A stretch of 38,719 bases of DNA. Origin: Eledone cirrhosa (taxonomy: Eukaryota). How positions within the stretch are numbered: the stretch's first letter is position 1; each line of letters starts with the position of its first letter. Both the position numbers and the translations under genes were made by a program. The stretch lies in contig CAXHJY010000148.1 in the NCBI GenBank assembly GCA_964016885.1, forward strand, positions 1 to 38,719, in the 5' to 3' direction. Positions 19,899 to 28,890 of this stretch are shown here, piece after piece. Under the pieces are notes generated by a model, which ran no database searches, was not told the DNA's origin, and saw only the letters and a program-made list of their open reading frames with translations.

Positions 19899-20335
19899 CG
19901 ATATTAACAAATGGAAACTATATTTATAAAACCATATCTATTTTATTATACATATTTCAAGGATACCATGTTAAATTATGGTATGCTTTCATCAGACAAA
20001 ATACAATAAATACCAGTTTTATAAATAAATATTGACATACCCTTACAAAATGCAACCGTTACTTTTGGAAGACATCAGGATGGTCTATCCCGATGTCTAT
20101 GCCGATGTCAATATTTATTTATAAAACTGGTATTTATTGTATTTTGTCTGATGAAAGCATACCATAATTTAACATGGTATCCTTGAAATATGTATAATAA
20201 AATAGATATGGTTTTATAAATATAGTTTCCATTTGTTAATATCGTATATTTACTCCAAATACTTGTCAAGTGCTTTATATCAGTTATAAAAAATATTTGC
20301 TTGTTGTATCCCAACAATTTAAATAAAACTTTTGC
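19899..20335 (+). mobile_element. Fold-back insertion, family B (Penelope-like end with hammerhead)
   Basis: 140-bp inverted arms 19899-20038 and 20105-20244, 66-bp spacer, 91-bp unpaired tail, (TA)n on both sides. Confidence 0.85.
20140..20204 (+). ncRNA. Type I hammerhead ribozyme motif (mirror copy on the minus strand at 19939-20003)
   Basis: Stem I tattttgt/ataaaata, CUGAUGA at 20148, stem II aagcataccat/atggtatcctt, GAAA-U-augu-A-UA; predicted cleavage after 20196. Confidence 0.85.
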
Positions 20336-20380
20336 ATATATATATATATATATATATATATATATATATATATATATATA

Positions 20381-20575
20381 GAAAAAAGTATGACCCCGAC
20401 GACAGAGCTCAAGCCGTTTCGACGGCTATTTCTGGACAGAAATAGCCGTCGAAACGGCTTGAGCTCTGCCGTCGGGGTCATACTACTTTTTTCCTATTTC
20501 CCACTCTACTACCCTAAGTATTGTATACTCTGGTGCGTTATGGTCCATCTGGTTCCTTACCACAATTCCTTTGTT
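20381..20575 (+). mobile_element. Fold-back insertion, family A
   Basis: Arms meet at tttctg-ga-cagaaa (20435-20436); same tail as 5227-5305; TA flanks. Confidence 0.8.
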
Positions 20576-20576
20576 A

Positions 20577-20822
20577 TATAAACGTTTGAAGTTAGAAGGC
20601 CAGACCAATGCCGGTATGGATATAGAATATAAATACAAATGCAAAAGATATCGCTGACAATTAGTCTTTTTGACTAATTGTCATTTATAATTGTCATTAT
20701 ATTGTCATTTATAATTGTCATTAATATTCTATATCCATAACTGCATTGTTCTGGCCTTCTGGCCTTCTAACTCCAAACGTTTATACCTCACTACGCAATG
20801 CTTCAAGAAAACTACCATTTCC
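20577..20822. mobile_element. Fold-back insertion, unassigned family
   Basis: Imperfect arms aaacgtttgaagttagaaggccag...ggatatagaatat and atattctatatcc...ctggccttctaactccaaacgttt; central hairpin tgacaattagtc-ttttt-gactaattgtca; short tail before (GT)n. Confidence 0.6.
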
Positions 20823-21354
20823 GTGTGCGCGCGCGCGTGTGTGTGTGTGTGTGTGTGTGTGTGTGTGTGTGTAGTTCCATTGATTATTTCGCAGTAGTGA
20901 TGAAATGGGGGAATATAAGAGAAAGCGAGAAAATCAAGAATAAAAAGAATTTAATTTACTTTAATTGAATTCTTTGTTTAAATATTAATTCAAGCATGGC
21001 CATTAGAACTGGGTGTCTATTAAAGGATTAGACACACACATTAGCCATATCAACTACACACACACACACACACACACACACACACATATATATCACAGAC
21101 ACACACATTAGCCATATCAACTACACACACACACACACAAACACACACACATATATATATATATATATATATATCACAGACACACACATTAGCCATATCA
21201 ACTCCACACACACTCTCAAACATATATATATATATCACACACATATACACACACAAACATATATATATATCACACACATATACACACACTTACATATATC
21301 ACACACACAAATATATATATATATATCATACAAGCACACATATGTAAATACATT

Positions 21355-26910: not shown

Positions 26911-26946
26911 ATATATATATATATATATATATATATATATATATAT

Positions 26947-27365
26947 GCAAAAGTTTTATTTAAGATTGTTGGGTTACAACGAGTAAATATTTTATAACTG
27001 ATATAAAAGCACTCAACAGTTTCTGGAGTAGGTTTACGATATTAAACAAATGGAAACTATATTTATAAAACCATATTTATTTCGTTATATATATTTCAGG
27101 GATATCATATTAAAAATATGGTATGCCTTCCTCAGACAAAATACAATACATAAGCTGTTTTATAAATAATTTTTGACATACCTTATAAATAATGCAACTT
27201 CCATTTAAAAAGTTGATTTGGTATGTCAAAAATTATTTATAAAACAGCTTATGTATTGTATTTTGTCTGAGGAAGGCGTACCATATTTTTAATATGATAT
27301 CCCTGAAATATATATAACGAAATAAATATGGTTTTATAAATATAGTTTCCATTTGTTTAATATCG
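26947..27365 (-). mobile_element. Fold-back insertion, family B (diverged copy, tail on the left)
   Basis: 146-bp arms 27037-27182 and 27220-27365, 90-bp tail 26947-27036, (TA)n flanks; homologous to 19899-20335. Confidence 0.85.
27259..27324 (+). ncRNA. Type I hammerhead ribozyme motif (mirror copy on the minus strand at 27078-27143)
   Basis: tattttgt-CUGAGGA-aggcguaccauauu-uuu-aauaugauaucccu-GAAA-U-auau-A-UA-acgaaata. Confidence 0.85.
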
Positions 27366-27429
27366 TATATATATATATATATATATATACAATATATTTA
27401 GAAACACACAGATACATGCGGACACACAC

Positions 27430-28001
27430 ATATATACATGAATGCATCCGCACCTAACTGTGAGTTAAGGGTGCCAACTTCACCGATGTTGCTCAATGAA
27501 TGACTGGGACAGACCAATTCAGTTGAACTAGACTGAACCAGTATCAGAGTTAAAAATACATTATGAAGAGAGAAGAAACATTTAGATATAATTAGTAATA
27601 AAATGTATCATACCTAAACTGCTCCTAAATTCCTCGACTACGTAGTTTCGTGGCATAAACAAAAACAATATATCATAAAGATATAGAGTCCTTGCGAGGT
27701 CTGCCGACTTATCAAGAGGATACCTCATTTTACTAGTCTCAAGAACGCGTCTACACGACGTGAGAAAGAATCCCAAAAGGCGGAGGGGGAGATAGTCACG
27801 CGATATAACGGTCGAGAAACAGAGCTAAGCCTCTTATAACCCCGAAGAAAATACCACGGAGGCGGAGGGGGTATTTATATCGAGGCCGTAGAAGAGGTGG
27901 TGAAGAAGGCGAGAAGTATGAGTAATGGAAGCTTTCCAGTTTAGGTATGATACATTTTATTACTAATTATATCTAAATGTTTCTTCTCTCTTCATAATGT
28001 A
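27430..28001 (-). mobile_element. Fold-back insertion, family F, with a long spacer
   Basis: 65-bp perfect inverted repeat 27557-27621 and 27937-28001, 315-bp spacer, right arm ends in (TA)n, unpaired tail on the left (left boundary approximate). Confidence 0.7.
27631..27720 (-). ncRNA. Type I hammerhead motif with a U3-A8 core variant
   Basis: uccuc-UUGAUAA-gucggca...ugccac-GAAAC-UACGUA-GUC-gagga. Confidence 0.72.
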
Positions 28002-28485
28002 TATATATATATATATATATATATATATATATATATATATATATTATTTGTACAGATTAAAGTTTAAGCAAGAATCAAGCAAACTATAAGATTTTATTAT
28101 ATAAATATATATATATATATATTATTCGGGTACAACTTCTGATTTAGCCTAAGAAAATATCTACATGCGTGTGTAATTTATACAAGCATATATTTATTTT
28201 TTTATTTTCAATTGAGTTCTTAAACACGTTGGATTGATAATGTTTTCAAAAAAACTAATTAACCCGCGTGTATATTATTTTTTTTCCTCATTTCGTGGAT
28301 CGTGGGTTGTCTCCCCTTCCCGCTTCGAAGTTTATATTTTAATATAACCTAATGTTTGTTGAGTGAGATGGTTACCAGTCAGAGTTTAGCTTTAAACTAT
28401 CTCTGTTATTGTATTAAATATATATATATATATATATATATATATATATATATATATATATATATATATATATATATATATATAT

Positions 28486-28890
28486 GTAGGAGGTGAGTTT
28501 TATTGTAGTACAATAAAGCAATGCAGATATCGGATAAGAAGCACTCTACAGTTTGTAGGACTGGAGTATACATAATATAAGATCAAAAGATGGTTAAAGG
28601 AGTTCCATGTATTTTATTATGCGCATTTCAAAAACAAACATCATCATGCAATAATATTTGTGTTTTCATCAGATAAAAGAGGAGAACATGATATGAAGGC
28701 TAAAAAACACTTGTGGATAGTGCAGTTTTAAATCAACTGCACTATCCACAAGTGTTTTTTAGCTTTCATATCATGTTCTCCTGTTTTATCTGATGAAAAC
28801 ACAAATATTATTGCATGATGATGTTTGTTTTTGAAATGCGCATAATAAAATACATGGAACTCCTTTAACCATCTTTTGATCTTATATTAT
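28486..28890 (-). mobile_element. Fold-back insertion, family C (distant relative of B)
   Basis: 156-bp arms 28572-28727 and 28735-28890, 7-nt spacer, 86-bp tail sharing aagcactc.acagttt..ctggagta with the family B tail; (TA)n flanks. Confidence 0.85.
28783..28851 (+). ncRNA. Type I hammerhead ribozyme motif (mirror copy on the minus strand at 28611-28679)
   Basis: guuuuau-CUGAUGA-long stem II-GAAA-U-GCGC-A-UA-auaaaau; palindromic loop 3. Confidence 0.88.

What the first reader, a model, noticed from the sequence alone, without database searches (positions are those of the whole stretch)
20140..28851. Three diverged hammerheads (B, B', C) show covariation and a shared stem II mismatch
Motifs at 20140-20204, 27259-27324 and 28783-28851 keep CUGA-N-GA and GAAA-U-N4-A-UA, with only N7 varying in the core. 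Stem II opens aag/cuu in B and agg/ccu in B' (A-U to G-C compensation). Stem I pair 2 is G-U, G-C and A-U in the three copies. All three have a pyrimidine-pyrimidine mismatch at stem II pair 4 (C-C, C-C, C-U). Loop 3 is AUGU, AUAU and GCGC, palindromic in two of three, as expected for hammerheads that build helix III by dimerising. This argues for selection on RNA structure. The conserved mismatch could mark a tertiary or protein contact (inference).
Basis: partly seen in the sequence, partly recalled or inferred. Interest (0 to 1): 0.75.

Follow-up and report, generated by a model that had tools for sequence, protein, structure and literature searches.

The report
Penelope transposon hammerheads with fixed mismatch
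These three motifs are the predicted self-cutting RNAs at the ends of a known kind of jumping gene, with about 100,000 copies in this animal genome; their stems swap base pairs freely yet keep one cytosine unpaired, which likely marks an untested contact site.

Summary
The three motifs, their pairs, mismatches and cut coordinates are as described. Each is one arm of a head-to-head palindrome in (TA)n, with a twin motif on the minus strand that the finding did not list. All three are pseudo-LTR hammerheads of Hydra-clade Penelope-like retrotransposons (PLEs): elsewhere in the genome B, B' and C adjoin Hydra-type RT-endonuclease frames. The core pattern has 112,500 matches with C at stem II pair 4 and 7,162 without. 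Across 33 subfamily representatives, 14 of 17 pairs show two-sided changes, while pair 4 keeps its C in 33 of 33 and is unpaired in 32. Genome-wide, the partner is a pyrimidine in 96% and G in 0.5%. Selection on structure is therefore supported, but in transposing lineages: inside these palindromes the motifs are predicted to be buried in long hairpins. PLE hammerheads, palindromic helix III, inverted insertions and (TA)n targeting are published. The conserved mismatch was not found in print in my searches (one key paper was unavailable), and this scan already noted it twice on other DNA of this genome. Cleavage and expression are untested.

The parts
19894..20335 (.). Insertion B: head-to-head palindrome of two 5'-truncated Hydra-PLE pseudo-LTR ends (arms 19894-20038 and 20105-20249, 100% complementary), long arm on +
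20140..20204 (+). Type I hammerhead B; C.C at 20158/20181; predicted cut after 20196
19939..20003 (-). Twin hammerhead B, identical, on the short arm; predicted cut after 19947
20250..20335 (+). PLE tail of B (present on one arm only), with TACTCC motif
26947..27367 (.). Insertion B': palindrome (arms 27035-27182 and 27220-27367, 99%), long arm on -
27259..27324 (+). Type I hammerhead B'; C.C at 27277/27301; extra C.A at stem II pair 8; predicted cut after 27316
27078..27143 (-). Twin hammerhead B' (one base different); predicted cut after 27086
26947..27034 (-). PLE tail of B'
28486..28895 (.). Insertion C: palindrome (arms 28567-28727 and 28735-28895, 98%), long arm on -
28783..28851 (+). 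Type I hammerhead C; C.U at 28800/28829; predicted cut after 28844
28611..28679 (-). Twin hammerhead C (one stem I change); predicted cut after 28618
28486..28566 (-). PLE tail of C
19779..19898 (.). (TA)n target left of B (right flank 20336-20380)
26910..26946 (.). (TA)n target left of B' (right flank 27366-27397)
28418..28485 (.). (TA)n target left of C (short TA run also at about 28886-28905)

Best explanation
B, B' and C are type I hammerhead motifs in the pseudo-LTRs of three related Hydra-clade Penelope-like retrotransposons, left here as truncated head-to-head insertions in (TA)n; they are predicted to cleave as dimers in the parent element's RNA, and the unpaired C at stem II pair 4, conserved across the lineage, likely forms a tertiary or protein contact. 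Shown: motif anatomy, link to Hydra-type RT-endonuclease frames, (TA)n flanks, two fixed right ends, covariation, conserved mismatch. Inferred: the parent RNA is a tandem read-through (or religated circle) in which the hammerhead lies about 140-170 nt before the start of the reading frame; the RT-endonuclease cuts both strands of (TA)n and starts cDNA at two fixed sites about 50 and 140 nt past the cleavage site, one on each DNA end; both cDNAs run back through an uncut hammerhead, stop early and join by microhomology, giving a palindrome with one short and one long arm. Selection on the RNA fold acted on the transposing lineages. The window copies are most likely inert by-products, because a read-through transcript would bury each motif in a 145-161 bp hairpin.
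For: Full-length example L102: inverted tail-less C end, C pseudo-LTR, 819-residue stop-free frame, second C pseudo-LTR with tail, (TA)n. B adjoins frame starts or ends in L093, L100, L101 and B' in L103. The frame has RLRWT, DKT, YRDD, CxCX5C, CxxC and CxH, the Hydra diagnostics in PMC8557442 section 11, and follows the printed Hydra-1_Obim protein motif by motif (read by eye). Ends fall at two sites; 71 of 75 head-to-head pairs are one long plus one short, 4 short-short, 0 long-long (binomial p 7e-17), matching the two RT start sites shown for an anole PLE (PMC11167929). Covariation. Mismatch: C in 112,500 against 7,162 non-C matches; opposite a pyrimidine in 108,194 and G in 528. C-G variants occur on both arms in 8 of 78 listed hits against 50 of 100 for ordinary motifs, so most are later point mutations. 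In context the probability of stem II forming is below 1e-25.
Against: No cleavage or expression data. Stem II pair 1 is not the canonical G10.1-C11.1 in any of the three (A-U), is G-C in only 8 of 33 representatives and a mismatch in 6; 36 of 62 B'-type arm records have A.A there (overlapping loci, not deduplicated), so some mobile subfamilies may cleave poorly or not at all. A few C-G and U.C variants sit on both arms of one insertion, so the mismatch is not strictly needed for an RNA to be copied. I saw no invariant G nearby that could pair with the C (by eye). In the anole PLE, ribozyme-dead RNA inserted normally in vitro. Independent changes on a tree are few, the shuffle control ignores relatedness, and the invariant C could be partly shared ancestry. 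No Rfam hammerhead family matched B' at E up to 10. Pfam found no family in the three Hydra-type frames scanned.
Confidence: 0.85

Rival explanations
1. The mismatch is a brake, not a contact: it weakens stem II next to the core so that enough RNA stays uncut to be reverse transcribed through the ribozyme.
For: Every insertion carrying the motif plus downstream sequence must come from an RNA intact at the cut site. Pair 1 is also weak or mismatched in many subfamilies. G opposite the C is almost absent (528 of 112,500). The idea is reused from earlier scan note e1-8670794.
Against: A brake would not need a C specifically, yet the 5' base is C in 33 of 33 representatives while its partner varies (C, U, A). 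Another Hydra lineage in the same genome has a paired position 4 in the copies read by eye and is recently active (frames of about 808 residues).
Confidence: 0.3
2. The mismatch is a frozen accident of ancestry, or reflects a DNA-level or protein-binding sequence motif unrelated to the RNA fold.
For: Only about five or six deep lineages were sampled. C at this position is common in published Hydra hammerheads (16 of 26 rows, all paired with G, read by eye), so the C may be inherited.
Against: Pairs 2, 3, 5 and 6 on either side have each swapped between pair types (A-U, G-C, U-A, C-G) over the same history, while position 4 is paired in only 1 of 33 representatives. One transversion would close it.
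Confidence: 0.2
3. The palindromes are self-propagating MITE-like or retrozyme units, or host-domesticated hairpin genes under selection at these loci.
For: Very high copy number; near-perfect 145-161 bp arms; hammerhead retrozymes derived from PLEs are described (bioRxiv 10.64898/2026.07.22.740005).
Against: Centres differ from copy to copy and core-to-core spacing runs from 88 bp to over 3 kb; longer copies extend into the 3' region and frame of autonomous PLEs; the three motifs are not in tandem arrays; arms match dispersed copies at up to 99-100%, which points to young insertions rather than locus-specific conservation.
Confidence: 0.07

Closest known systems
Hydra-clade Penelope-like elements and their hammerheads (Craig et al. 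2021, PMC8557442; abstract, passages, section 11, supplement Files S1, S2 and protein excerpts seen)
   Same: C-terminal endonuclease PLE with RW-, DKT, CxCX5C, CxxC and CxH motifs; hammerhead near the 3' end; (TA)n insertion; inverted 5'-truncated copy; tail on one end only.
   Different: Tail about 80-95 nt rather than 30-40; helix III is U-N4-A; none of the 26 Hydra rows of File S2 shows a mismatch at stem II pair 4 (16 have C there, paired with G). Their descriptor may miss mismatched stems.
PLE hammerheads with a small palindromic helix III (Cervera and de la Pena 2014, PMC4209133; results, discussion and supplement Fig. S3 text seen)
   Same: Type I core, long helix II, palindromic 15.2-16.2 and loop 3, dimer model, many variable families per genome, dual motifs on opposite strands 100-700 bp apart. 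The Drosophila willistoni row has the same U-N4-A-UA helix III.
   Different: Their consensus has an extra base after A9 and G10.1-C11.1; here no extra base and pair 1 is variable. Two of 56 single examples have a mismatch at pair 4 (S. purpuratus(1) C.A, C. sinensis(2) U.U; read by eye), not remarked on as conserved.
PAc, Poseidon PLE of Anolis carolinensis (Frangieh et al. 2024, PMC11167929; main text parts 1-2 seen)
   Same: Two internal RT start sites downstream of the hammerhead define the tail; both target strands are cut and extended; AT-rich targets.
   Different: Different PLE clade; its frame starts inside the hammerhead, here about 140-170 nt after it; protein-assisted cleavage is shown there and untested here.
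Axolotl HHR_Amex1 and newt satellite hammerheads; non-LTR retrozymes (PMC7229834, passages seen)
   Same: One-pair helix III capped by a palindromic tetraloop; over 100,000 motifs in one genome; dimer cleavage.
   Different: Those are tandem non-coding repeats with canonical loop 1-loop 2 contacts; these belong to protein-coding PLE ends and have an extended stem II.

Membership tests
Type I hammerhead ribozyme | Core CUGANGA ... GAAA ... UH around a three-stem junction with open stem I | tested here: met
Type I hammerhead ribozyme | Stems I and II supported by compensatory changes | tested here: met
   14 of 17 pairs, 0 of 500 shuffles; relatedness not fully controlled; stem I was a selection criterion
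Type I hammerhead ribozyme | G10.1-C11.1 closing pair (highly conserved, not obligatory) | tested here: not met
   A-U in all three; G-C in 8 of 33 representatives. U.U here is known in active natural hammerheads (PMC3088659 passage)
Type I hammerhead ribozyme | Match to an Rfam hammerhead model | tested here: not met
   None for the B' region at E up to 10; none among the 150 of 294 matches shown for the whole window
Type I hammerhead ribozyme | Site-specific self-cleavage | not testable with these tools
   Needs an in vitro assay
Dimer-type PLE hammerhead | Helix III of 1-2 pairs with self-complementary loop | tested here: met
   Loop positions pair in 32 of 33 representatives at each of the two positions, counting G.U; duplex energies
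Penelope-like element pseudo-LTR | Flanks an RT plus GIY-YIG-type frame in partial tandem | tested here: met
   L102 for C; L093, L100, L101 for B; L103 (frame start) for B'
Penelope-like element pseudo-LTR | Inverted 5'-truncated copy and tail on one end only | tested here: met
   71 of 75 pairs
Hydra clade | RWK-like, DKT, CxCX5C linker, CxxC and CxH, no internal CCHH, C-terminal endonuclease | tested here: met
   on the L102 frame (RLRWT; B-linked frame has RWR); the CCHH regex hit only the terminal CxxC/CxH region; criteria
Hydra clade | (TA)n insertion | tested here: met
Hydra clade | Placement in an RT phylogeny with published Hydra proteins | not tested
   Published sequences were only read by eye
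Non-LTR retrozyme | Tandem non-coding monomers each with a hammerhead | tested here: not met
   No tandem array over the three motifs; single head-to-head pairs linked to coding elements

The most novel reading that the evidence does not exclude
This PLE lineage has evolved a hammerhead whose unpaired C10.4 replaces the lost loop-loop contact: it docks the element's own RT-endonuclease (or the partner ribozyme of the dimer) and so times cleavage against reverse transcription, a protein-gated ribozyme switch maintained across more than 100,000 copies and dozens of subfamilies.
Probability: 0.25. Interest if true: 0.68.

Novelty: new variant of a known kind. Interest (0 to 1): 0.4.

Why it matters
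What PLE hammerheads do is still open: they cut slowly in vitro, one was shown to need the element's protein, and ribozyme-dead RNA still inserts. A single position that stays unpaired while its neighbours covary gives a precise, cheap mutation with which to ask how these ribozymes are switched on or held back. The one-long-one-short rule at 71 of 75 palindromes also supports two-ended priming as the source of PLE inverted structures. The host element, the dimer-type ribozyme and the insertion pattern are themselves known.

Tried and rejected
Rfam scans gave only microsatellite- and hairpin-driven miRNA matches below gathering thresholds. The repeat finder was swamped by (TA)n. Pfam found nothing in three Hydra-type frames and a sub-threshold RVT_1 in a Neptune/Nematis-like frame; a protein search gave 14 unnamed relatives at 32-37% identity. 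A Neptune/Nematis-like element often lies next to B, B' and C; I rejected it as the parent because the pseudo-LTRs run directly into Hydra-type frames, and take the closeness as shared (TA)n targeting. Naiad was considered and rejected: the endonuclease is C-terminal. No PLE protein match lies in the window itself. No invariant G partner for the C was seen in flanking sequence (by eye only). For family counts I dropped 45 of 273 motif contexts from loci I had picked as exceptions, and one of 34 representatives (L033, aberrant stem II) before aligning; many remaining loci came from a search that required the C, so the genome-wide counts are the fair measure of its conservation. Literature: searches found no description of a conserved stem II pair 4 mismatch; Lunse, Weinberg and Breaker (RNA Biol, PLE hammerhead dimers) is not held, one supplement file of PMC4209133 could not be searched, and figures are not visible, so prior description cannot be excluded.

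Full report
Observation. The three motifs are at the stated coordinates with the stated core, stems, mismatches, loops and cut positions. Folded alone, each gives stems I and II with pair 4 of stem II open. Each motif is one arm of a palindrome of 145-161 bp arms, 98-100% complementary, with a twin motif on the minus strand, and each palindrome is flanked by (TA)n. B' has a further C.A mismatch in stem II. The B loop AUGU is self-complementary through two G.U pairs. No Rfam hammerhead family was seen.

What they belong to. The window is a 38.7 kb contig of a 3.0 Gb genome. DNA searches with B', C and B gave 1,017, 203 and 1,086 first-look candidates, of which 40 each were scored. Longer copies lead into coding sequence. 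L102 holds an inverted tail-less C end, a C pseudo-LTR, an 819-residue stop-free frame, a second C pseudo-LTR with tail and (TA)n. B lies before or after a related frame in L093, L100 and L101, and B' runs into a frame start in L103 that is 79.5% identical to the B frame. The L102 frame has RLRWT, DKT, YRDD, CxCX5C, CxxC and CxH, the features that define the Hydra clade of Penelope-like elements in Craig et al. 2021 (PMC8557442, section 11), where hammerheads and (TA)n insertion are also reported. It follows the printed Hydra-1_Obim protein motif by motif (by eye); no tree with published proteins was built.

Insertion anatomy. Sequence downstream of the predicted cut ends at two places, about 50 and about 140 nt on. 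Of 75 head-to-head pairs in the fetched loci, 71 have one long and one short end, 4 two short ends and none two long ends. Centres differ between copies and core-to-core spacing runs from 88 bp to over 3 kb, so the palindromes are separate truncation events, not a unit that spreads whole. An inverted truncated copy and a tail at one end are published PLE traits, and two internal RT start sites with both target strands cut and extended were shown for an anole PLE (PMC11167929). My inference is that one RT start site is used at each end of a break in (TA)n and the two cDNAs join by microhomology. Earlier notes of this scan reached the same reading for retrozyme arrays in this genome; they are not independent evidence.

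Covariation. From 273 motif contexts in the fetched loci I dropped 45 from loci picked as exceptions, clustered the other 228 at 92% and aligned 33 of 34 representatives. Of 559 cells 88.9% pair, against 72.0% in shuffles (0 of 500 as high) and 29-51% with partners slid; 14 of 17 pairs have two-sided changes. RNAalifold recovers stems I and II with a covariation term of -4 kcal/mol and leaves pair 4 open. Loop 3 positions pair in 32 of 33 at each position. Cautions: stem I pairing was part of the extraction rule; the shuffles ignore relatedness; on a tree of downstream sequence the sample falls into about five or six deep lineages with 2-11 changes per pair side (which included 11 exception loci among 49). 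At coarser clustering (11 families) stem II pairs 3, 6 and 8 stay significant and pairs 1, 2 and 5 do not.

The mismatch. The 5' base of pair 4 is C in 33 of 33 representatives and unpaired in 32. Genome-wide the core pattern has 112,500 matches with C there (control 175) and 7,162 without (control 592; the list includes internal false starts and apparent CpG decay). Opposite the C stands a pyrimidine in 108,194 and G in 528. C-G variants lie on both arms of one insertion in 8 of 78 listed hits (a satellite cluster left out), against 50 of 100 ordinary hits, whose count may include some chance neighbours: mostly later point mutations, with a few that were copied or converted. A second Hydra lineage in the genome, with GAAA-C-N4-G-UH, has a paired position 4 in the copies read by eye. 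In published tables, 0 of 26 Hydra rows show the mismatch, though 16 have C there paired with G, and 2 of 56 single PLE examples have a mismatch at pair 4. So this lineage kept the C and lost the pair. Two earlier notes of this scan report the same mismatch on other DNA of this genome.

Against activity. Pair 1 of stem II is A-U in all three motifs, G-C in 8 of 33 representatives and mismatched in 6; many B' copies have A.A. In the context of the whole palindrome the probability of stem II is below 1e-25 for all three, so a read-through transcript would be a long hairpin, not a ribozyme. Published PLE hammerheads cut slowly even as dimers, and the anole one needed protein and was dispensable for insertion in vitro.

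Mechanism, committed. In the parent element the hammerhead likely trims a tandem read-through transcript as a dimer through its self-complementary loop 3, slowly or with protein help, so that uncut or religated RNA remains for reverse transcription from two downstream start sites. The unpaired C most likely makes a specific non-canonical contact (about 0.45), ahead of a plain brake (0.3) or accident (0.2); its identity is fixed while its partner varies, which fits a contact better than mere weakening. None of these steps was tested.

Verdict. Observation confirmed and interpretation supported at lineage level. The element, ribozyme type, dimer logic and insertion pattern are known; the conserved C.Y mismatch is a real lineage-specific variant that I did not find in print (one key paper not held). 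New variant of a known kind; interest 0.4.

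Noticed in passing
window 26722-26909: A further small palindrome with twin hammerhead-like motifs of another type (CUGAAGA ... GAAAC-AAUU-GU), cores at 26779 (+) and 26776 (-), sharing the (TA)n that flanks B'.
   Followed up: partly
window 5100-5227, 19171-19214, 20387-20484, 30066-30322: Palindromes and fragments of another repeat family; those at 5100 and 20387 seem to fold back inside a hammerhead stem II, keeping GAAAC but not the 5' core.
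   Followed up: no
window 1306-2212, about 26000-26690, 30350-31279: Mariner-like transposase remnants; the first has 104 bp terminal inverted repeats. Family name from recalled motifs, not from a library call.
   Followed up: no
window 25279-26029: Fragments resembling the C-terminal restriction-like endonuclease region of a non-LTR retrotransposon (recalled motif).
   Followed up: no
L118, L121, L124, L127, L130, L133, L136 (upstream of the frame): A young Hydra family with frames of about 808 residues carries a deviant core (CCGAAGA, U4 to C), a U.U first pair and a non-palindromic loop 3, yet is recently amplified.
   Followed up: partly
tails of B, B', C and other lineages: A TACTCC motif just after the short end and a GAGUGC-like motif 15-45 nt on recur across very diverged Hydra lineages; candidates for the RT binding or start signal.
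   Followed up: partly
L001-L030 centres: Many B' junctions recur at a natural short inverted repeat upstream of the hammerhead, and some centres hold nested fold-backs, suggesting microhomology joining with template switches.
   Followed up: partly
L091 about 4150 (also L085): A B pseudo-LTR is joined to the RT region of an unrelated Neptune/Nematis-like PLE at a 10-base microhomology, a possible template jump between two PLE families.
   Followed up: no
L093 5842-8331, L096: An abundant Neptune/Nematis-like PLE with a CX4CX2C linker and an asparagine-rich N-terminal insert often lies beside Hydra ends.
   Followed up: no
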